A stretch of 64,000 nt of DNA from an uncultured Pseudomonadota bacterium (GCA_903889445.1 CAISXF010000005.1:151030-215029), one strand, 5' to 3'; positions 2,795-55,377 are shown, counted from the first letter of the stretch. The notes: generated from the sequence alone by a model not told the origin. Program-made: numbers and translations.

Positions 2795-5470
2795 TTAATC
2801 ACGCGATTGAAAATGTAAAAAATCAATCAAACGCATGGATTCGCTGACTTCGTTATGCGGTAATAACAGATATTTCCATGATTTTGTCGTCACTTTTTTA
2901 GCGTGAACAGATGCATTTTGACACCATGTTTTTGCGGCAATCGCTTTGGATTGTACTTCTTGCGTGTCAATGTCGTTTTGCGCTTTGGTTTCGACCATAA
3001 AAATACTGGTCTCCGTTTCAGCGATAAAATCAGGAATATATTCGGGCTGTTCTGTACCCGATTTATAGTAAATCTGGAATTGACCTTTAACTGGTTTGAA
3101 CCATTTCAACGCATCGCGTTCAAGAATAATAGCAAAACGTCGCTCTGTATCCGAATCAAATTTTTGTAGCGGGTATAAACATTTTTGAAAACCGCTAAAA
3201 ATCATTTTTTTGATGTTTGCTTTATCCACTAGGGTTTCACGAAAATAACGCGCTTTTTGTTCGGTTGCCGTGTAGTTGCACGGTTTTAATTCCGTAAAAC
3301 CGCGACTAATTTTAACTTCATAATCCGTCGCTTGTTCCCAAAAATGCGCCACCATTTGTGCGTGAATTTCTTTGGCAATTAAACGATTATCGTGGTGTAA
3401 AACATTTTTGGCATTGGCTTCAGATAAGTAACTTCGCAAATGTTCAACCATTTGACCAGTCAAATCATAAAGCAATTCGGATTGGGTGAAATAATCTATA
3501 TCTTCAAAATCAACCAACGCATGAATCAGATAATCTTCTAATCGTGCCTGTTTTAATCCTGTTTCAGCCGCCAGAGTAAATTGTTCATTGGTTCGCAAAT
3601 TCTGTCCCACAATTTCATGTTCGCGTGCTTGCAAATGCAATTTGCTAATGTCGAGTTTAAAAGGATGAAAACCTGTTGTGATTTCACCTGTTGGCACAAC
3701 AGTGATTCGAGGAATATCGATAGTTTGTTGTACAACTAACTCCGTTGTTTTGCTTACTACTTGAGATAAATCAATTTTTTCTTCCGTGAAAATGCTTGCT
3801 TGATTTGGTCTTAAACGTTCTGTGACTTCCGCGAGAATTTCTTTTTGTACCTGTGCATTGAGCAACGCGCCACTGGTTGGCACAAAATCACATTGTGTTT
3901 CAAATGAACGAATAACATCTAAGGTTGTTTTTGCCGCCAACAATTCCGATTCAGAAACAAATAACGGGGGCTTTTCTGTTGTTGATTCGGAATTTTTTAC
4001 GATGCCAAGTTTCGTATAAAGGTTTGATTCGACGTAAACACTGATTTTTTGTTCTTGTTCATTCGGTTTTTCTAAAATCACTTGTTTCAATCGAATAGGA
4101 GAATCACCTCGATTGGCTGCGTCGATGATTTCTTGAAATTTATCATGTGCCACAATGTTTAAACGGTCTACCGCATCAATGCCTGTGCGCTTTCCATAAG
4201 GCAAACGCAATCCCCGTCCAATCGATTGTTCGATCAAGGTTCGGGCATTCGCCGCACGCAACGGCACAATTGTATAAAGATTGGTCACGTCCCAACCTTC
4301 TTTAAGCATATTGACGTGAATCACAATCTCGGTTGGTTCATCGACACTTTCCACCGCCAATAATCGCGCAATCATGATTTCTTCTTCTGCGCCCGATTTG
4401 CTCGAATCAACTTGAATCACTTTGCCGCGATAACGTCCCTCATGAAATTGCTCAGATTCTATTAGCGTTAATAATTGCGCGGCGTGCGTGGTATCGCGTG
4501 CAATTACCAACATAAAAGGTTTCACTAATTTGACGTTGTTTTCACGCGAATACGTTAAAAGTTCGACTTTCGTGGTTTCGTGCAAACGCACGCCGTCTTC
4601 TAATTTTATTTTTTCAAGTTCTTCGGGCGAATAGGCTTTTACATCAAAACCACGTTGCGTCACAACAGCGGGTTCTTTGACAAAACCGTCTTCCATTGCA
4701 CGCGCTAACGGATAATCAACAACCACATTTTTAAACGGTATCGGAGCGCGTGAAGTTTCAACAAAAGGTGTGGCAGTGAGTTCTAAACCTAACAAGGGTT
4801 TAAGTTCGTTAATGGCACGCATTCCCGCTTGAGCGCGATAACGGTGCGATTCGTCCATCAGCAAAACTAAATCAGGCAATTCCGCCAAATAATTAAAATA
4901 GCTGTCGCCCAGATATTCGGATAAACGTTTTATTTTGGGTGATTTTCCACCGCGAACTTCAGACGTGATTTTGGCAATGTTGAAAATGTTAATTGAAATC
5001 GCGCCAAAAATATCCAGCGCACGACCTTTGGTCTCGTAGTCATCGCCAGTAATGACTTTCGGCGGATTGATGGCAAATTCTGAAATGCCTTTGAACACAT
5101 ATTTCGGCGTGTTGGGCGTGAAATCTGCGATGAGTTTGTTATAAATCGTTAAGTTTGGCGCGAGGACAAAAAAATGATTGATGCCGTGTGCAAGATGTAA
5201 ATAGGAAATAAATGCGCCCATCAAGCGCGTTTTGCCCACGCCCGTCGCTAATGCAAAACACAACGATGGAAAATCACGCTCAAAATCTTCAAGCGTCGAA
5301 AACTCCATTTTTAACGTTTCTAAAATCGCCGTTAAATCACGCTCTTGTTTTAAAACATCGGGCGATAAATCGATGGTTTTTGCAAGACTGGTTAGCGATT
5401 CGGCTTGTGGCGCACGCAACGATAATCGTCCGATAAGATTGTGAAGTATTTTTGATTTCATGTTTTCCAT
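2795..5470 (-). CDS. res: Type III restriction enzyme Res subunit (SF2 helicase plus C-terminal PD-ExK nuclease)
   Basis: 891-aa ORF with Walker A ALATGVGKT, DExH box LLMDESHRYRA and a helicase C region ..IGRGLRLPYG... A C-terminal nuclease-like motif YIPDF..x13..MVETK is present. It lies downstream of a mod gene on the same strand. Confidence 0.85.
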   Translation of the reverse strand: MENMKSKILHNLIGRLSLRAPQAESLTSLAKTIDLSPDVLKQERDLTAILETLKMEFSTLEDFERDFPSLCFALATGVGKTRLMGAFISYLHLAHGINHFFVLAPNLTIYNKLIADFTPNTPKYVFKGISEFAINPPKVITGDDYETKGRALDIFGAISINIFNIAKITSEVRGGKSPKIKRLSEYLGDSYFNYLAELPDLVLLMDESHRYRAQAGMRAINELKPLLGLELTATPFVETSRAPIPFKNVVVDYPLARAMEDGFVKEPAVVTQRGFDVKAYSPEELEKIKLEDGVRLHETTKVELLTYSRENNVKLVKPFMLVIARDTTHAAQLLTLIESEQFHEGRYRGKVIQVDSSKSGAEEEIMIARLLAVESVDEPTEIVIHVNMLKEGWDVTNLYTIVPLRAANARTLIEQSIGRGLRLPYGKRTGIDAVDRLNIVAHDKFQEIIDAANRGDSPIRLKQVILEKPNEQEQKISVYVESNLYTKLGIVKNSESTTEKPPLFVSESELLAAKTTLDVIRSFETQCDFVPTSGALLNAQVQKEILAEVTERLRPNQASIFTEEKIDLSQVVSKTTELVVQQTIDIPRITVVPTGEITTGFHPFKLDISKLHLQAREHEIVGQNLRTNEQFTLAAETGLKQARLEDYLIHALVDFEDIDYFTQSELLYDLTGQMVEHLRSYLSEANAKNVLHHDNRLIAKEIHAQMVAHFWEQATDYEVKISRGFTELKPCNYTATEQKARYFRETLVDKANIKKMIFSGFQKCLYPLQKFDSDTERRFAIILERDALKWFKPVKGQFQIYYKSGTEQPEYIPDFIAETETSIFMVETKAQNDIDTQEVQSKAIAAKTWCQNASVHAKKVTTKSWKYLLLPHNEVSESMRLIDFLHFQSRD

Positions 5471-5483
5471 TTGTGTGTCGATA

Positions 5484-5544
5484 TGCGGCTAAAGCCGCAC
5501 CTATATTTGTGTTTGTGATTATCGTAGGTGCGGCTTTAGCCGCA
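5484..5544. repeat. REP doublet (REPIN), head-to-head, 19-nt spacer
   Basis: 5484-5504 tgcggctaaagccgcacctat is the inverted partner of 5524-5544 GTAGGTGCGGCTTTAGCCGCA. Each unit is itself a hairpin (tgcggc/gccgca). The left unit has a degenerate head (ATAG instead of GTAG). Confidence 0.9.
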
Positions 5545-5550
5545 TTGTAT

Positions 5551-6006
5551 TTATAACCATATCGCGTCCCAATGCGAATAATCGCCGATGTTTTTTACCA
5601 AGTTGGCGCGCAGTGGATTTGCCACAATATATCGGGCAATCGATTGAACATCTTCCTCTTCGCGCAACGCATGGTCATAAAAATTCCTTTGCCATAACGT
5701 TCCATTTTGTCCTAAATAACCATTGATTTCACGCGCCGAACGACCTTTAAAAACACCAACTATTTCAGATAAAGATTTTGTTGTTTCTCCTAACTGAAAT
5801 AACCAATGCACATGGTCTGGCATAACAACCCACGCCATCGAATAAACAATTTTTTGTTCGTGCAATAATTTCATATTTTGAACCACTAAACGAGCGCACT
5901 TGAAATTCTCAAAATAACGCGCCTTTCGATTTGCAAGCACCGTTGTTACAAAATATGCACGTCCATTTTCACTAAATCGTCCTTTGCGTAAATCATCATA
6001 AGCCAT
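5551..6006 (-). mobile_element. rayT: REP-associated tyrosine transposase (RAYT, IS200/IS605-like HUH Y1 transposase), 151 aa
   Basis: From ATG 6006: MAYDDLRKGRFSENGRAYFVTTV... It carries the HUH motif VVMPDHVHWLFQ and the catalytic Tyr region ARYIVANPLRANLV. REP doublets flank it on both sides. The 186-aa ORF in the track is an upstream read-through across the REP doublet. Confidence 0.85.
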
Positions 6007-6027
6007 TGTTAAAATTCCTAATTTAAA

Positions 6028-6085
6028 TGCGGCTAAAGCCGCACCTACAGTTTTTAATAATTTTGTAGGTGCGGCTTTAGCCGCA
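6028..6085. repeat. REP doublet (REPIN), head-to-head, 16-nt spacer
   Basis: 6028-6048 tgcggctaaagccgcacctac and 6065-6085 GTAGGTGCGGCTTTAGCCGCA are perfect 21-nt inverted copies. They lie in the 97-nt gap between the mod stop (6104) and the RAYT start (6006). Confidence 0.92.
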
Positions 6086-6103
6086 TTGTAATCACATAAC
6101 TCA

Positions 6104-7825
6104 TCAATCAAACAAATCCATCGTACCGTTATCTTTGCGTTTTACCGATTCAAACGATTTCAAATCCGACGGTTGCGCCATCGGTAAATTCGCCACATTC
6201 AAACTGTAATCATCATGTCCCCATTCACAACGCGCCAAAATCATTTTGGGGATTTTTTTAAGCGTTAAATTCGCCCAACGTTCCACCGCCTCCGTACCAC
6301 TCACACCATGAAACGCACTGCAACAAATCAACAAACTTTGCGTGCCGACTTCTTCCGAAAGCATCTGCAATTGTTGCGCGGAAAGATTTTGCGTCGTGAC
6401 GTAAATAAAATCATTTTCGGACGAATAACCGTGTTTCCACCACTGCGTTTCAGAGGGCGCGTAAGTGAAACCTTCTAATTTCGCTAACGCTTCGGCTAAC
6501 ATCGCAGGATTATATTCAGGATTGATAATTTCCATGCCCCAACGGTCTTTAATAATCAAAGTCGGCGCGAGTTTGTAATAACGAAAACCACCGCCACCTT
6601 TCCAATTCACCGTTTTAGAAATCCCGCCTTGGTCTTCGCCATCAATCACTTTTTGCAAACGCGGCATAATATGCGTGTGGCAATGTTCACCGAGTTCAAT
6701 CATTATCCAACGTCGTCCCATTTTTTGAGCCACTGCACCTGTTGTGCCTGAACCTGCAAAGGAATCTAAAACAAGGTCGTTTGGATTTGTGGCAATTTCG
6801 AGAACACGTTTAATTAAACGTTCTGGTTTTGGAGTTGCAAATAGTTCAGAGGTTGTCACGTCTGGAAATAGTTTTTTTAGTTCATATTTGGCTTGTCTAT
6901 TATGTCCAGTTGCATCTAAATCATCCCATATTGTTGAAGGGGATAATCCACCTTGGTCTGCCAAATATGTTTTTTTAATTACACGAGTTCCATCTTTTGA
7001 AAAAACGAGTTCTTTACGGTCAATCATTTCTTGTACCCGTGATTCACTCCAACGCCAACCATTTTTAGGCGGTTCAATTTCTACACCCGTAGGACTAAAT
7101 ATAGTAAATCGCAAATTTGGTCTTGGATTTGGTGATGATAAATTTCCTGAAAACCAGTCGCCTCTTGGGTCATTATCTGGATTTGAATAATGGGCATTAG
7201 AGTCATCGGTTCGAGCTAAAGGAATACTTCGCCAACCTGTGTTTTTTGAATAAACCAATATCTGGTTGTGGTCTAAAGAAAATTGTTTTGCGTCATTATT
7301 TGATGAATCTGCTGATCGCCAAGCTATTGAAGCTACAAAACATGAACGTCCAAACAATTCATCACACAACACTTTCAAATAATGCGCTTCGTTGTCATCA
7401 ATCGTAATCCACAATGAACCGTCATCAGCAAGCAAAGAACGGATAATTTCTAAGCGGTCACGCATCAAACCGAGCCAAATCGAATGTTCTAAACCGTCAT
7501 CGTAATGTTGGAATGCGCTGCCTGTGTTGTAAGGCGGGTCGATAAAAACGCATTTAATTTTGCCTGTAAATTCTTGTTCTAAGGCTTTGAGTGCAAGCAA
7601 GTTGTCACCGAAAATCAAACGGTTGTCAAAAATATCTTGTGTAGGTGCGGCTTCAGCCGCATTGTTCGACGACGTACCATTTGTTGCGGCTGAAGCCGCA
7701 CCTACAAATGGGAATCGTCTAAATTTTGCATGGTAGGATTTTTCTTTGTCTTCAAGCAGAATGCGTGGCTCTAAACGTGGGCGTTTTTCTTTGCCAATCC
7801 ATGTTAGTTCTAGTTTTTGTTTCAT
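6104..7825 (-). CDS. mod: Type III-like DNA methyltransferase Mod (beta-class N6-adenine/N4-cytosine MTase)
   Basis: 573-aa ORF. Motif IV FIDPPYNTG comes before motif I DSFAGSGTTG, which is the beta permutation. The N-terminus KLELTWIGKEKRPRLEPRILLED is typical of Mod-type methylases. It is upstream of and co-oriented with res. Confidence 0.85.
   Translation of the reverse strand: MKQKLELTWIGKEKRPRLEPRILLEDKEKSYHAKFRRFPFVGAASAATNGTSSNNAAEAAPTQDIFDNRLIFGDNLLALKALEQEFTGKIKCVFIDPPYNTGSAFQHYDDGLEHSIWLGLMRDRLEIIRSLLADDGSLWITIDDNEAHYLKVLCDELFGRSCFVASIAWRSADSSNNDAKQFSLDHNQILVYSKNTGWRSIPLARTDDSNAHYSNPDNDPRGDWFSGNLSSPNPRPNLRFTIFSPTGVEIEPPKNGWRWSESRVQEMIDRKELVFSKDGTRVIKKTYLADQGGLSPSTIWDDLDATGHNRQAKYELKKLFPDVTTSELFATPKPERLIKRVLEIATNPNDLVLDSFAGSGTTGAVAQKMGRRWIMIELGEHCHTHIMPRLQKVIDGEDQGGISKTVNWKGGGGFRYYKLAPTLIIKDRWGMEIINPEYNPAMLAEALAKLEGFTYAPSETQWWKHGYSSENDFIYVTTQNLSAQQLQMLSEEVGTQSLLICCSAFHGVSGTEAVERWANLTLKKIPKMILARCEWGHDDYSLNVANLPMAQPSDLKSFESVKRKDNGTMDLFD
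7641..7705. repeat. REP doublet (REPIN variant, tail-to-tail, 23-nt spacer) embedded in the mod coding sequence
   Basis: 7641-7661 GTAGGTGCGGCTTCAGCCGCA and 7685-7705 tgcggctgaagccgcacctac. This is the same 21-mer as the RAYT-flanking REPs except the loop is TTCA rather than TTTA in both arms. It is translated in-frame as ..FVGAASAATNGTSSNNAAEAAPT.. of Mod. Confidence 0.9.
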
Positions 7826-7878
7826 CGTGTTTAAAGTTTCCTAAAAGGTAGCGAGCGACAATCTAAGCTCTTCAAATT

Positions 7879-8442
7879 TCATTGCAACACCCATTCAATT
7901 TTAAAAAGTGTTCGTTCGTGTATTTTCTGCTCTAACTGCTTTTCAAGCTCTTCAATCAAGTCATTACGTTCAGCTTCAATTTTATCCTGATTAACAAACA
8001 ACTCACGCCGTAATTTACTGCGCTTGGTTTCAAGTTCACGTTGCTGTTTTTGCCAATGCAATTTTTCTTCAAGTGTTGGCGAACCCGAAGCCGTGCGGCG
8101 AACTTCTTTAATTTCACGGTCGATTTCTTTAATTTCCTGTTCTAAACCGTGTTTCAAATCATCCGCCCACGCATCGAGCTTTTCAACTTCTAAGTCAAAA
8201 TAACCTAAATTACGTTGATTGATGTCACGCAAAAGCATAGATTTTCGCGTTTCAATATCGTTTAACAACGGCGTATCTTTTAATTCAAAATCTGTCGCAG
8301 GTAAAACGTGTGCGGGAATACGCAATAATTTTTCAGGGTCATATTCTTCCAAAACACTGCCATCGAACTGACAAGCTGAAACAATTAAATGTTCTTCGAC
8401 GTTTCCGAAACATTCACAACAAACAAGCTCACACTCAACCAA
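7879..8442 (-). CDS. C-terminal part of the SNF2-family protein (coiled-coil tail), separated from the body by a frameshift
   Basis: 187-aa frame opening at a TTG directly after an in-frame TAA. It overlaps the end of the 8385-10775 frame by 58 nt. The sequence is highly charged with heptad-like repeats: EIKEIDREIKEVRR..KRSKLRRELFVNQDKIEAERNDLIEELEKQLEQK. No independent ATG or SD was seen. Confidence 0.6.
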   Translation of the reverse strand: MVECELVCCECFGNVEEHLIVSACQFDGSVLEEYDPEKLLRIPAHVLPATDFELKDTPLLNDIETRKSMLLRDINQRNLGYFDLEVEKLDAWADDLKHGLEQEIKEIDREIKEVRRTASGSPTLEEKLHWQKQQRELETKRSKLRRELFVNQDKIEAERNDLIEELEKQLEQKIHERTLFKIEWVLQ

Positions 8443-10775
8443 CCCGATTTACCACGATGATTATTTTTAAGCGTGCTGATTTGATTGCCATAACCATCAT
8501 AATCGAAAACCAAACGCGCCACGGGAAGCGTGCGACTTTTAGCTTGTTGCAAAAGCCATTCAGCCAACGGGTGTCCCAAACGATACAAATGCGCTTCACC
8601 TGTACGACGTGGCAATTCATAACGTCCAAGTGCAATGTCTTTTAAATGGATATTCGGCAATTGTTCAAGCACAAAACCACGCCCATCAAATTCTGCACAA
8701 TCGTGTAATTCTGACCGTGTTAAATCCATTAACATTTTTTCAAAACGATTCCGCACCGAATAACTATCTTCGGCGCAAATTCGTAATTTCTCTTGAACTT
8801 GTTCATCAAAATGATCGAGTAAAATTTGGCGCGTTTTGACCATCGCATCGTTAATTTCACCTGATAACTCACGTTGCAATTGTTCAAAACTATTTTTGAT
8901 TTCGTTTACATCGCGGCAATTTTGATAAATATCCGCAATGCGCTGCTCAAAATCAATGCCTGAACCAATTGCGCCTAAGACTTCATCACTCGCCCCAAAA
9001 ACACCTTCAAACAATTGAAATTTTTGCGCTAAAAGCTCATAAACTCGCGCATCGGCTTCATTGCTACGGTCTACAAAATTCACGACGACCACATCAAATT
9101 TTTGTCCGTAACGATGGCAACGACCAATGCGCTGTTCAATACGTTGTGGATTCCAAGGCAAATCGTAATTGATAACGAGCGAACAAAATTGAAGGTTAAT
9201 GCCTTCTGCACCTGCTTCGGTTGCAATCATGACGGTGCCGCGTTCTTTGAATTCTTCAACAAGTGCGGCGCGGATGTCCGCTGTTTTAGAACCTGTAATA
9301 AAATCAGTGCCTGCGTGACGTTTTAACCATTGTCTGTAAATTTTCTGCGCCCGAGCATCGCTATTGGTGCCATTAAACAAAACAATGCTTTCACCATAAT
9401 GCGTTTCCGCCAGCAATGACAAAAGATAATCTTGCGTTCGCCTAGATTCAGTAAAAATAATGGCTTTTTTGGGTGCGCCTAAACGTTCTAATTCGACAAA
9501 TGCACGTTCTAACGCGGTCAAAAGTGCTGTTCCTTTTGCATTTTCACGAATGTTCGTCGCTAAGTTTTTAAAATGCCGCAGCTCTTTAATTTCTTGTGCA
9601 ATCGCAATTTTTTCTTCTGTATTCAACAAAATTTCATCATCGATTTCACTGCCCCATTCATCACTAATTTCATCCAGCGATTCAAAATCATTGTCCAATT
9701 CATCAGAAAGATGAGGCACATCTGTCATTTCATTTAACAGATTTTGCAAACGATTCGCCATTGTTTCCAATGCACCTGCAATGGCGTGTGTGGAAGAAGC
9801 GAGTAATTTCCAAAGCACCAATGAAATCAGTTGTCGTTGACCTTGTGGAAGAGCTTTAAGTTGTGGGCGACGCAAATAATCCGCGACAAGATGGGTTAAT
9901 TCTTTTTCTTCAATCGAAGGTGTAAATTCTTGAACGATTGCTCTGCGTGCCGTGTAAGAAACATAAGGCTGAACGTGATAACGCAATGTGCGTTTACAAA
10001 TAGGCGCAAGTCTGTTTTTCAACTGTTGAAACGCCACGCTTTTCCCTGAACTTGAAAATTGCGCCCGAAAACTGTCTAAATCACCAAAAATACGGTCATC
10101 AATAATACTGACCAAACCATATAATTCCAGCAATGAATTTTGCAGCGGCGTTGCCGTGAGCAATACTTTCAAATGAACTTTTTCTAAGGCATCTTTGATT
10201 GTTCGCGCAATGACGTTGCTGGGTTTATACACGTTACGCAATCGATGTGCTTCATCATCAAGGACAACCAAATGCCAATCAACGGCTTTGATTTTGTCGG
10301 CTTTCGTTTTCGCGAACTGATACGAACATAAAACAATTTCGTCCGATGTCGAAAATGGATTTGAATTCTGTTTTTTGGCGATGAGGTTATAGTTTTTCGT
10401 TTCAAGAATGAGACTTTTCAAACCGAATTTGTCTTGTAATTCTTGATACCACTGTTTGCGTAAATTAGCGGGAACAATAATTAAAATGCGTCGCCGCCGT
10501 TCTGCCCAATGTTGAGAAATGACAAGCCCAGCTTCAATCGTTTTTCCAAGTCCCACTTCGTCCGCGAGAATAACGCCTTTCGAGAGTGGATTTTTACAAG
10601 CAAACAAAGCTGCATCAACTTGATGAGGATTTAAATCAATTTGTGCATCCACTAAAGTCGAAGCAAACGATTCCATTGACTCACTCGACGAACGACGAGT
10701 GAGTAACCATGCGTAGAATTGGTTTTGATAGGGTGTCAGCAAATCATTTTTCACACTGCTTTTTAACTCAGCCAT
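8385..10775 (-). CDS. SNF2/RAD54-family (SF2) ATPase, N-terminal 796 codons; probably one roughly 960-aa gene with 7879-8442
   Basis: Motif [11 protein letters not shown], motif [14 protein letters not shown], and helicase-C motifs ..[12 protein letters not shown].. and [21 protein letters not shown] 10775 overlaps the hemC stop (the ORF-track start 10778 is a TTG one codon upstream). Confidence 0.85.
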
Positions 10776-11697
10776 CAATCAATGCTTTCAAAATTTCAGC
10801 CGCGCCTTGCTTGAGTAATTCATCGGCAATACTTTCGCCAATTTCAATCGCATTTTCAGCGTGACCACGTTGTTCAGCGCGATAAATAACGCTGCCGTCA
10901 GGATTTCCGACTAAACCACGCATGAAAATTTCGCCGTCGTTCAATTCAGCAAAACCTGCAATCGGAACTTGGCAACCGCCATTTAATCTGGCATTCATGG
11001 CGCGTTCAGCGATAACACAAATTGCAGTCATTTCATCGTGCAACGCTTTTAACATTTCGTTAATTTCAACATCATCAACGCGGCATTCAATGCCAATTGC
11101 ACCTTGTCCGCACGCAGGCAAACTGGTTTCAATTGGCAAACGTTGGCTAATTCTATCCGCCATGCCTAACCGTTTCAAACCAGCGGAAGCCAAAATAATT
11201 GCGTCATATTCGCCCGCGTCGAGTTTTGCTAATCGAGTATTCACATTGCCGCGCAACGATAAAATTTCAGCCTTCGGAAAATGCGCTTTGATTTGACATT
11301 GACGGCGTAAACTCGACGTGCCGATTCGAGCATTTTCGGGCAATTCGTTGAGATTTTGATACTGATTCGACACAAACGCATCGGTCGGATCTTCGCGTTC
11401 CAAAATCGCGGCGAGGTGCAAACCTTCGGGGAAATCAATCGGCACGTCTTTCATGGAATGCACCGCAATATCGGCATTCCCTTCGAGCATTCCTTGTTCG
11501 AGTTCTTTTACAAACAAACCTTTTCCGCCAATTTTGGCAAGTGGCGCGTCGAGAATTTTATCGCCGCGCGTCACCATTTTAACGAGTTCGGTTTGAATAT
11601 GAGGAAACGCTTTCTGTAAAAGCGCGGCGACGTGTTCGGCTTGCCAAAGAGCTAACGGACTTTGACGGGTGGCAATTCGGATAATTTTAATAGTCAC
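10768..11697 (-). CDS. hemC: Porphobilinogen deaminase (hydroxymethylbilane synthase)
   Basis: 309-aa ORF with N-terminus [18 protein letters not shown] and the ..[21 protein letters not shown].. signature of HemC. Confidence 0.95.
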
Positions 11698-55288: not shown

Positions 55289-55294
55289 ACTTTT

Positions 55295-55368
55295 TGGAGC
55301 GGGTGATGGGAATCGAACCCACGCAATCAGCTTGGAAGGCTGGAGTTCTACCATTGAACTACACCCGC
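55295..55368 (-). tRNA. tRNA-Gly (TCC)
   Basis: Reverse complement GCGGGTGTAGTTCAATGGTAGAACTCCAGCCTTCCAAGCTGATTGCGTGGGTTCGATTCCCATCACCCGCTCCA. Anticodon loop CTTCCAA. Confidence 0.92.
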
Positions 55369-55377
55369 TGAATTATT

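What the first reader, a model, noticed from the sequence alone, without database searches (positions are those of the whole stretch)
7641..7705. REP doublet embedded in-frame inside the mod coding sequence
A third REP pair lies within mod and is read through as ..FRRFPFVGAASAATNGTSSNNAAEAAPTQDIF... It sits between the conserved Mod N-terminus (LELTWIGK..PRLEPRILLED) and the conserved DNRLIFGDNLLALKAL block that precedes DPPY. REPINs are normally extragenic. This one preserves the reading frame while adding a 65-nt near-perfect hairpin (21-bp arms) to the mRNA about 120 nt from the start codon. Its arms are tail-to-tail, unlike the two head-to-head doublets, and both arms carry the same loop variant (TTCA rather than TTTA), as expected if a doublet replicates as one unit. 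Possible consequences are translational throttling of the methylase, a RAYT-cleavable site inside a gene, or a tolerated linker insertion.
Basis: seen in the sequence. Interest (0 to 1): 0.66.

Follow-up and report, generated by a model that had tools for sequence, protein, structure and literature searches.

The report
In-frame REP doublet inside mod gene

Summary
Bases 7640-7706 form a perfect inverted repeat with 22-nt arms and a 23-nt spacer. It lies in codons 40-62 of a 573-aa type III mod gene (6104-7825, minus strand).

Each arm is a GTAG-type REP. It differs at one loop base from the four REPs that flank a REP-associated tyrosine transposase (RAYT, 5551-6006) between mod and res.

Three near-identical orthologous loci lack the segment. 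Two of them already carry the RAYT cassette, so the copy in mod came later. About 185 of 194 related Mod clusters also lack any insert there.

The event is not a clean insertion: 87 nt replace 18 nt, a net gain of 69 nt (23 aa). Only one reading frame per orientation is free of stop codons.

The insert falls in a predicted disordered linker (pLDDT below 50). The filled gene is intact in four assemblies with three different target-recognition domains, and pN/pS is 0.06-0.17. The best reading is a tolerated passenger insertion.

In-frame GTAG-REP dimers encoding 20-30 aa were catalogued in 2013, including one in a DNA methylase, so this is a new member of a known kind.

One addition: the same linker carries six different inserts across the family.

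The parts
7640..7706 (-). REP doublet (REPIN-like). The arms are 7685-7706 (GTAG...GCA as read on the mod strand) and 7640-7661, with the spacer at 7662-7684. It encodes V41-T62 of Mod.
7628..7727 (-). About 100-nt patch (codons 33-66) that differs from the three empty-site alleles. 87 nt (TTTAGACGATTCCCATT + doublet + CAA) replace 18 nt (CATCGTGTCACGGATAAC). Substitutions also cluster in the flanking codons.
6104..7825 (-). Type III mod gene, 573 aa. It has an N6_N4_Mtase domain and the DPPY motif. The target-recognition domain lies at about 6835-7400.
6021..6092 (.). Head-to-head REP doublet upstream of the RAYT gene, 19 nt after the mod stop codon. Both loops are TTTA.
5551..6006 (-). RAYT gene, 151 aa. 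It has the HUH motif PDHVHW and the Tyr motif ARYIVANP. The listed 186-aa ORF 5551..6111 is this gene extended upstream by read-through of the REP doublet.
5483..5545 (.). Head-to-head REP doublet downstream of the RAYT gene, 13 nt before the res start codon.
2795..5470 (-). Type III res gene, 891 aa.
7879..10778 (-). DrmD-like SNF2 helicase gene upstream of mod. In this window a frameshift near 8415-8445 splits it into pieces of 797 and 187 aa.

Best explanation
A GTAG-type REP doublet belonging to the REP family of the RAYT cassette (REPtron) in the mod-res spacer became part of the 5' region of the type III mod gene.

It survived for three reasons. First, the final arrangement keeps the reading frame, with a net gain of 69 nt. 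Second, it uses the only stop-free frame of the palindrome, which encodes small residues (VGAASAATNGTSSNNAAEAAPT). Third, it lies in a disordered, naturally length-variable linker. That linker joins the conserved N-terminal arm (residues 1-37) to the first strand of the methyltransferase core (residue 68 onward).

The methylase remains functional, and the element is a passenger. Its perfect 22-bp hairpin in the mRNA is a by-product. It may lower expression somewhat, but it is not a conserved requirement of the family.

Shown: identity with the local REPs, absence from orthologues, the order of events, frame and stop-codon arithmetic, purifying selection, and the predicted loop location.

Inferred: that RAYT or a local copying process moved the doublet; that the odd junctions reflect either a recombination patch from another mod allele or frame-restoring remodelling; and that the protein is active.
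For: Identity with the local REPs. The arms are 95-96% complementary to the RAYT-flanking REPs, and there are no other copies in the 64-kb window. The RAYT is confirmed by PF01797 and by NF047646 at 151 bits.

Order of events. L001 has neither cassette nor insert. L129 and L130 have the cassette but an empty mod site. The window, L002, L004 and L005 have both. No locus has the insert without the cassette.

Absence from orthologues. The segment is missing from about 185 of 194 orthologue clusters.

Reading frames. One of three frames is stop-free in each orientation.

Structure. In the AlphaFold2 model residues 39-63 have pLDDT below 50 and no secondary structure, while the flanking core is confident. 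The fold matches type III Mod structures 4zcf, 6k0w and 7dsu.

Linker variability. The distance from the LEPR motif to the GDN motif varies from 25 to 39 residues across the wider family.

Selection. Filled alleles are intact in four independent assemblies. They combine the same 5' module with three different target-recognition domains (about 50% nt identity there, 92-100% elsewhere). pN/pS among filled alleles outside that domain is 0.06-0.17.

No conserved structure. The other insert types at the same site have weak hairpins or none (z from -1 to -1.8), so no RNA structure is conserved at this position.

Precedent. Intragenic in-frame GTAG-REP dimers encoding 20-30 aa are documented, including one in an N-6 DNA methylase (PMC3733652).
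Against: The event is not a simple insertion into the known empty sequence. 18 nt are replaced and neighbouring codons differ, so the mechanism is not resolved.

No second copy of this exact doublet was found, so mobility of this unit is not demonstrated.

The doublet is invariant in all four filled loci. This could reflect constraint, but 60-70 nt on each side are invariant too.

Mod activity and the effect of the hairpin on expression were not measured. The disordered-loop placement rests on a predicted model.
Confidence: 0.8

Rival explanations
1. The hairpin has been co-opted as a regulator. The perfect 22-bp stem in the mod mRNA slows ribosomes or is cut by a double-strand-specific RNase, and this tunes Mod relative to Res.
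For: The hairpin is very stable: -46 kcal/mol, z = -8.9. Both arms and the spacer are identical in four loci whose flanking gene parts differ by 3-8%.
Against: The 60-70 nt on each side are equally invariant. Other inserts at the same site do not form comparable hairpins. The closest orthologues work without it, since their genes are intact. No terminator-like site is present and no Rfam family matches.
Confidence: 0.1
2. RAYT-dependent switch. The neighbouring RAYT excises or re-inserts the doublet and so turns mod on or off, as a recombinational analogue of phase-variable type III mod genes.
For: An intact RAYT with HUH and Tyr motifs lies 1.6 kb downstream in the same gene cluster. The palindrome is 67 nt, so its removal alone would shift the frame. 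There is no simple-sequence repeat that could give classical phase variation.
Against: No excised or frameshifted variant was seen among the homologues retrieved. The empty alleles differ in the junction sequence, so they are not excision products. The RAYT in L004 and L005 carries HVD instead of HVH, yet the doublet is unchanged.
Confidence: 0.03
3. The filled mod gene is a decaying pseudogene, or the insert is an assembly artefact.
For: The upstream SNF2 gene in this window is frameshifted, so parts of the island may be decaying.
Against: The same insert occurs in independent assemblies from ENA, NCBI and JGI. The ORF is full length in all of them, and pN/pS is 0.06-0.17.
Confidence: 0.03
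4. The segment is a native variable linker that resembles a REP by chance.
For: Linker length varies across the family.
Against: There are 21-24-nt matches at 95-96% to the REPs beside the RAYT, against 0.03 chance matches expected. The segment is absent from near-identical alleles.
Confidence: 0.01

Closest known systems
Intragenic GTAG/CGTC REPs (Di Nocera, De Gregorio and Rocco 2013, BMC Genomics 14:522; PMC3733652)
   Same: A GTAG-tagged REP dimer is read through in frame inside a gene for a known protein and encodes about 22 aa. The paper reports that more than 50% of intragenic inserts are dimers or groups encoding 20-30 aa. The reading frame relative to GTAG is the same (VGPALAAG there, VGAASAA here). 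The paper's list includes an N-6 DNA methylase and many DNA-metabolism genes.
   Different: The host gene here is a type III mod. The responsible REPtron sits in the same operon, 1.6 kb away. Empty, cassette-only and filled alleles are all available, which gives the order of events. The same loop carries unrelated inserts in other lineages.
Rickettsia palindromic elements (RPE). Ogata et al. 2000 and Claverie and Ogata 2003 are cited from my own knowledge; RPEs are summarised in PMC3733652.
   Same: Palindromic repeats are inserted in frame in functional protein genes, and they are tolerated.
   Different: Most RPEs are longer and are not known to be RAYT-associated GTAG REPs. They are genome-wide and high in copy number. 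Here only three doublets occur in 64 kb.
REPIN/RAYT systems (Bertels and Rainey 2011, PMC3116915)
   Same: Two inverted REPs form one long hairpin, and a single RAYT gene is flanked by REPs.
   Different: REPINs are described as extragenic and abundant. This copy is intragenic. Abundance of the family could not be shown in the 64-kb window, where only three doublets occur. Replication of this doublet as a unit is not shown.
Phase-variable type III mod genes (phasevarions; from my own knowledge)
   Same: A repeat lies inside the 5' part of a type III mod gene, and mod alleles differ by shuffling of the target-recognition domain.
   Different: There is no simple-sequence tract and no evidence of switching.

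Membership tests
GTAG-type REP / REPIN (RAYT-associated) | A short GC-rich imperfect palindrome with a GTAG tetranucleotide at one end | tested here: met
   The unit is GTAGGTGCGGCTT[C/T]AGCCGCA, with a GCGGC/GCCGC stem and a 4-nt loop.
GTAG-type REP / REPIN (RAYT-associated) | Two REPs in inverted orientation that can fold into one long hairpin | tested here: met
   The arms are 22 nt and 100% complementary, and the fold energy is -46.3 kcal/mol.
GTAG-type REP / REPIN (RAYT-associated) | A cognate RAYT gene flanked by the same REPs (REPtron) | tested here: met
   The RAYT at 5551-6006 matches NF047646 at 151 bits. REP doublets lie on both sides of it.
GTAG-type REP / REPIN (RAYT-associated) | A multi-copy family dispersed in the genome | tested here: inconclusive
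   Only six REPs occur in 64 kb, all within 2.2 kb. The rest of the genome is not available. The core occurs in at least 119 stretches of other genomes from many phyla.
GTAG-type REP / REPIN (RAYT-associated) | Extragenic location | tested here: not met
   The doublet lies inside the mod ORF. Documented exceptions exist (PMC3733652).
GTAG-type REP / REPIN (RAYT-associated) | Mobilised or cleaved by the RAYT | not testable with these tools
   This needs biochemistry or population sequencing. No second copy of this doublet was found.
In-frame palindromic insertions in protein genes (intragenic REP / RPE class) | The segment is absent from close orthologues | tested here: met
   L001, L129 and L130 are empty, and about 185 of 194 clusters have the short linker.
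In-frame palindromic insertions in protein genes (intragenic REP / RPE class) | The reading frame is kept with no stop codon, and the host ORF is full length | tested here: met
   The net gain is 69 nt and the ORF is 573 aa.
In-frame palindromic insertions in protein genes (intragenic REP / RPE class) | The host gene remains under purifying selection | tested here: met
   pN/pS is 0.06-0.17 among filled alleles outside the target-recognition domain.
In-frame palindromic insertions in protein genes (intragenic REP / RPE class) | The insert lies in a surface or disordered region | tested here: met
   In the AlphaFold2 model residues 39-63 have pLDDT below 50 and no secondary structure. This is a prediction only.
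Type III R-M Mod subunit | A beta-class N6-adenine methyltransferase domain with DPPY, a type III Mod fold, and an adjacent Res gene | tested here: met
   The protein matches PF01555 and PADLOC MTase_III at 711 bits. Foldseek matches 4zcf and 6k0w at E = 1e-28. The res gene lies at 2795-5470.
Phase-variable mod (phasevarion) | A simple-sequence repeat tract in the ORF or promoter | tested here: not met
   Tandem Repeats Finder finds nothing in 5300-8000.
Intrinsic terminator / attenuator | A GC-rich hairpin immediately followed by a U-tract on the transcribed strand | tested here: not met
   No terminator-like site is called at 7640-7706 on the minus strand. The U run starts 8 nt after the stem.

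The most novel reading that the evidence does not exclude
The N-terminal linker of this Mod family may be a recurrent landing pad where host-specific palindromic repeats are captured and turned over. Six unrelated inserts occupy the same position, and four of the six share an upstream His-to-Phe/Tyr change. In this locus the perfect hairpin might then be used to tune or switch methylase expression within the R-M operon. That could happen through cleavage or excision by the co-resident RAYT, or through processing by a double-strand RNase.
Probability: 0.07. Interest if true: 0.7.

Novelty: new member of a known kind. Interest (0 to 1): 0.35.

Why it matters
This locus is a clean natural series. 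Alleles are available with no cassette, with the cassette only, and with the cassette plus an intragenic copy. Together they show how a REP/RAYT element that has settled inside a restriction-modification operon can seed a copy into a neighbouring coding sequence, and which filters let that copy persist: the frame, the single stop-free reading, and a disordered linker.

Practically, the result warns annotators in two ways. REP-encoded Ala/Ser-rich segments inside defence genes can be real coding sequence. Conversely, RAYT ORFs are often called too long because the REP doublet upstream of them is open.

The recurrent use of one Mod linker by unrelated repeats marks that loop as a permissive site, which could be exploited for tagging type III Mod proteins. 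The finding does not change what is known about REPs.

Tried and rejected
(1) I looked for a second copy of the same doublet with the same spacer in JGI metagenome contigs. Only the mod locus already known (L005, fetched again as L127) was found, so replication as a unit cannot be supported.

(2) I tested whether the doublet is more conserved than its flanks. It is invariant, but so are 60-70 nt on each side, so there is no element-specific signal.

(3) I tried to derive the junction sequence from the empty allele by simple indels or frameshift. No convincing alignment resulted. The patch looks replaced rather than interrupted.

(4) I tested whether the other inserts at the site are strong hairpins or multi-copy repeats. 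Fold z-scores are weak. The P0306 insert has a 14-nt palindrome but no other copy within 21 kb. DNA for P0272 was not retrievable.

(5) The Rfam scan gave only sub-threshold matches to generic eukaryotic miRNA hairpins.

(6) The terminator scan found nothing at the site.

(7) The representative-library search showed that linker length varies, but found no further REP-like inserts. This is expected, because rare alleles are hidden inside 50% clusters.

(8) L101 was dropped as an intragenic candidate, because the REP lies near the N-terminus and probably upstream of the true start.

Full report
OBSERVATION

The region 7640-7706 is a perfect inverted repeat. The arms are TGTAGGTGCGGCTTCAGCCGCA and TGCGGCTGAAGCCGCACCTACA, each 22 nt, separated by a 23-nt spacer. 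As RNA it folds into a single hairpin. The 87-nt segment has an energy of -46.3 kcal/mol, z = -8.9, and 0 of 200 shuffles fold as well.

An 18-nt core of the arm matches 7 times in the 64-kb window against 0.03 expected. All matches fall in three doublets, at 5484-5544, 6028-6085 and 7644-7702. A repeat search over the whole window finds no other member of the family and no other REP-like family.

The doublet lies inside one uninterrupted minus-strand ORF, 6104..7825 (573 aa). It begins 119 nt after the start codon and is translated as V41-T62, VGAASAATNGTSSNNAAEAAPT.

The orientation and loop statements also hold. In mod the GTAG ends face outward and both loops are TTCA. In the other two doublets the GTAG ends face inward and all four loops are TTTA.

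GENE CONTEXT

All genes below are on the minus strand. The order is hemC, a DrmD-like SNF2 helicase (7879-10778), mod (6104-7825), REP doublet, a 151-aa gene (5551-6006), REP doublet, res (2795-5470), hemD and hemX.

- Mod has the N6_N4_Mtase domain. It scores 711 bits on a PADLOC type III methyltransferase model. Its predicted fold matches EcoP15I Mod (4zcf) and 6k0w at E about 1e-28.
- Res matches the type III restriction enzyme model at 702 bits.
- The 151-aa protein is a REP-associated tyrosine transposase. It matches NCBIfam NF047646 at 151 bits (cut-off 80) and Pfam Y1_Tnp. It has HUH (PDHVHW) and Tyr (ARYIVANP) motifs.

The three doublets are thus a classical REPtron (REPs, RAYT, REPs) in the mod-res spacer, plus one extra doublet 1.6 kb upstream inside mod. 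Each REP starts with GTAG, the hallmark of RAYT-associated REPs (PMC3733652).

IS IT AN INSERTION?

Yes. In an alignment of the 120 closest Mod clusters, nearly all read ...SYHAKHRV-[S/T][E/D]xD-IFDNRLIFGDN. The window, P0001, P0002 and P0004 carry 23 extra residues at that point.

I fetched the DNA of several syntenic loci.

- L001 (an 84-kb contig; hemC, SNF2, GmrSD, mod, a 62-aa ORF, res, hemD, hemX, hemY) has neither the RAYT cassette nor the insert.
- L129 and L130 have the RAYT cassette, but mod is empty at the site.
- L002 (Methylococcaceae MAG GCA_037140875.1), L004 (ENA) and L005 (JGI) have both the cassette and the insert, like the window.

No locus has the insert without the cassette. 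The cassette therefore arrived first and the mod copy is the later event.

TTCA-loop REPs occur among the RAYT-flanking REPs of L129 and L130. A local source for the loop variant therefore existed. The shared TTCA of the two mod arms does not by itself show that the doublet replicated as a unit.

A scan of JGI metagenome contigs for the doublet with its spacer returned only the L005 contig.

JUNCTIONS

The three empty alleles are identical at the target: AAA CAT CGT GTC ACG GAT AAC GAC. The filled alleles read AAA TTT AGA CGA TTC CCA TT, then the 67-nt doublet, then CAA GAT.

So 87 nt replace 18 nt, a net gain of 69 nt or 23 codons. Several substitutions also cluster in the adjacent codons (GCC to GCA; GAC AGC TTC to GAT ATT TTT). 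Meanwhile 50 nt further out on each side are identical.

A 67-nt palindrome alone would shift the frame. There are two possible explanations. The doublet may have entered together with about 20 nt of foreign flank, for example as a recombination patch from another mod allele; the patch restores the family-typical DIFDN. Alternatively, the junctions may have been remodelled to restore the frame. I could not decide between these.

Only one of the three frames is free of stop codons in each orientation. That frame encodes small residues. Selection among rare events is therefore enough to explain an in-frame survivor.

IS THE GENE STILL IN USE?

The filled mod is a full-length ORF in four independent assemblies.

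The alleles are mosaics. The 5' part and the 3' half are 92-100% identical in DNA. The central target-recognition region (about 7400-6835) is only about 50% identical among the window, L001, L002 and L004. The REP-bearing 5' module is thus combined with at least three specificities.

Outside that region, pN/pS among filled alleles is 0.06-0.17, with pS of 0.1-0.2. This indicates purifying selection after the insertion.

The doublet itself is invariant in the four loci. However, 60-70 nt on each side are invariant too, so I draw no conclusion about selection on the hairpin.

WHERE IN THE PROTEIN?

An AlphaFold2 model built on a 78-sequence alignment has mean pLDDT 81 and pTM 0.79. Residues 39-63 have pLDDT below 50 and no secondary structure. 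They lie between a short conserved N-terminal arm and the first strand of the methyltransferase core at 68-72.

Among representatives of the wider family, the distance between the LEPR and GDN motifs ranges from 25 to 39 residues. The segment is a naturally variable linker.

A RECURRENT SITE

In the 120-sequence alignment, this linker holds all four rare internal insert types of 6 or more residues. The only other rare insertions lie at or near the protein ends: start-extension artefacts at the N-terminus and short inserts near the C-terminus.

Adding a second homologue search gives 194 clusters with both anchor motifs. Of these, 9 clusters carry six different inserts at the same position:

- the window type;
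- P0003, LPRPLGEGLGERE;
- P0023, PSPPAPHPIGGGEQGVG;
- P0119 and P0289, KPQIDADLRRLDGADAAASASVG;
- P0272, a 50-aa insert with an internal repeat;
- P0306, KPDARPGEPGFP, which contains a 14-nt palindrome.

Their hairpin potential is weak, with z from -1 to -1.8. I could not show that they are multi-copy elements.

Four of the six insert types have Phe (or Tyr in one member) instead of the usual His two residues upstream. They also share a K-F-[RK]-x-x-P boundary. None of 168 short-linker clusters has Phe there. This could mean one old long-loop lineage with turnover of its content, or a compensatory change. It remains unexplained.

OTHER INTRAGENIC COPIES OF THIS REP CORE

The 21-nt core occurs in at least 119 stretches of reference genomes from many phyla. 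In a six-frame screen of 166 REP sites, most are intergenic or at gene ends. Three lie deep inside genes with domain support.

- L063 is a Thiocystis MAG. A doublet read as VGAASAAQTPLDDGHDAAKAAPT lies inside a type IIG restriction-methyltransferase gene. It is 2.8 kb from a RAYT that is 54% identical to the one here.
- L124 has a copy inside a UvrD-family helicase domain, which is split into two matched stretches.
- L121 has a copy near the C-terminus of a DUF255 thioredoxin-domain protein.

COMPARISON WITH WHAT IS KNOWN

Di Nocera et al. 2013 (PMC3733652) sorted REPs into GTAG and CGTC superfamilies. They reported REPs located inside genes in several species. More than half of those inserts are dimers or groups encoding 20-30 residues, and many lie in DNA-metabolism genes. 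Their supplementary table lists, among others, an N-6 DNA methylase of Opitutus terrae and dimers read in the same frame (VGPALAAG...).

In-frame Rickettsia palindromic elements are an older precedent, cited in the same paper. The present case meets the features of that class (see the membership table) and is a new member of it.

It does not meet the criteria for three other categories. It is not a simple-sequence phase-variable mod. It is not an intrinsic terminator. It matches no Rfam family.

VERDICT

The most likely meaning is a tolerated passenger in a permissive linker (confidence about 0.8). A regulatory role for the hairpin is a minor rival (about 0.1). A RAYT-driven switch is a remote but interesting possibility (about 0.03).

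Novelty is modest. What is new is the well-resolved order of events, the REPtron living inside an R-M operon, and the repeated use of one Mod linker by unrelated inserts.

Noticed in passing
window 8385-8445 (gene 7879-10778, minus strand): The DrmD-like SNF2 helicase upstream of mod is split by a frameshift into pieces of 797 and 187 aa. The L001 orthologue is one 963-aa protein, and tblastn switches from frame -3 to -2 near 8415-8445. This could be a real pseudogene or a sequencing error.
   Followed up: partly
window 7826-7878, compared with L001 4261-5994, L004 246-1979 and L129 3292-5025: Sister loci carry a 577-aa GmrSD (DUF262/DUF1524) gene between the SNF2 helicase and mod. It is absent from the window, where only 53 nt separate the two genes.
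   Followed up: partly
window 5483-6092, compared with L001 7657-7893: The REPtron occupies the mod-res spacer. In L001 the same spacer holds a 62-aa ORF and has no REPs, so the cassette replaced or displaced that ORF.
   Followed up: partly
window 5551-6111; also the genes called in L004 3697-4275 and L129 6640-7218: The RAYT ORF is artificially extended upstream because the head-to-head REP doublet is open in one frame (AAKAAPTKLLKTVGAALAA). Gene callers report 186-192 aa, overlapping the mod stop codon. The true start is most likely the ATG at 6006 (151 aa).
   Followed up: yes
L004 and L005, RAYT gene (aligned to window about 5805): In these two loci the second His of the HUH motif is Asp (PDHVDW rather than PDHVHW). 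This RAYT may be inactive, yet the doublet in mod is unchanged.
   Followed up: no
window about 6835-7400: The central target-recognition region of mod is only about 50% identical in DNA among the window, L001, L002 and L004, while both flanks are 92-100% identical. This is the classic pattern of specificity-domain shuffling among type III mod alleles.
   Followed up: partly
Mod residues 35-63; proteins P0003, P0023, P0119, P0289, P0272, P0306: Six unrelated inserts of 10 to 50 aa occupy the same linker position in 9 of 194 homologue clusters. Four of the six types have Phe or Tyr in place of His two residues upstream and share a K-F-[RK]-x-x-P boundary. No short-linker cluster has Phe there.
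   Followed up: partly
L063 2-1939, with the REP doublet at 1328-1395 and the RAYT at 4199-4735: A Thiocystis MAG has the same REP core as an in-frame doublet inside a type IIG restriction-methyltransferase gene, 2.8 kb from a RAYT 54% identical to the one here. The same ORF also contains a second palindromic-looking segment (SHAPAWEQATTLQRHE...GIPTRSVGTR).
   Followed up: partly
L124 7232-7252; L121 1106-1126: Single copies of the same REP core are read through inside a UvrD-family helicase domain and near the C-terminus of a DUF255 thioredoxin-domain protein.
   Followed up: partly
Genome-contig loci L008-L126: The exact 21-nt REP core GTAGGTGCGGCTTNAGCCGCA occurs in very distant taxa: Pelotomaculum, Chromatiales, Desulfobacterota, Nitrospinota, Uliginosibacterium, and even MAGs labelled Saccharibacteria and Nitrososphaerota. 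This breadth is unusual for one REP sequence.
   Followed up: no
window 55293-55403 and 57708-57735: Three similar 28-nt segments end in GGATTCGAACC, which looks like the 3' ends of tRNA genes. I did not examine them.
   Followed up: no
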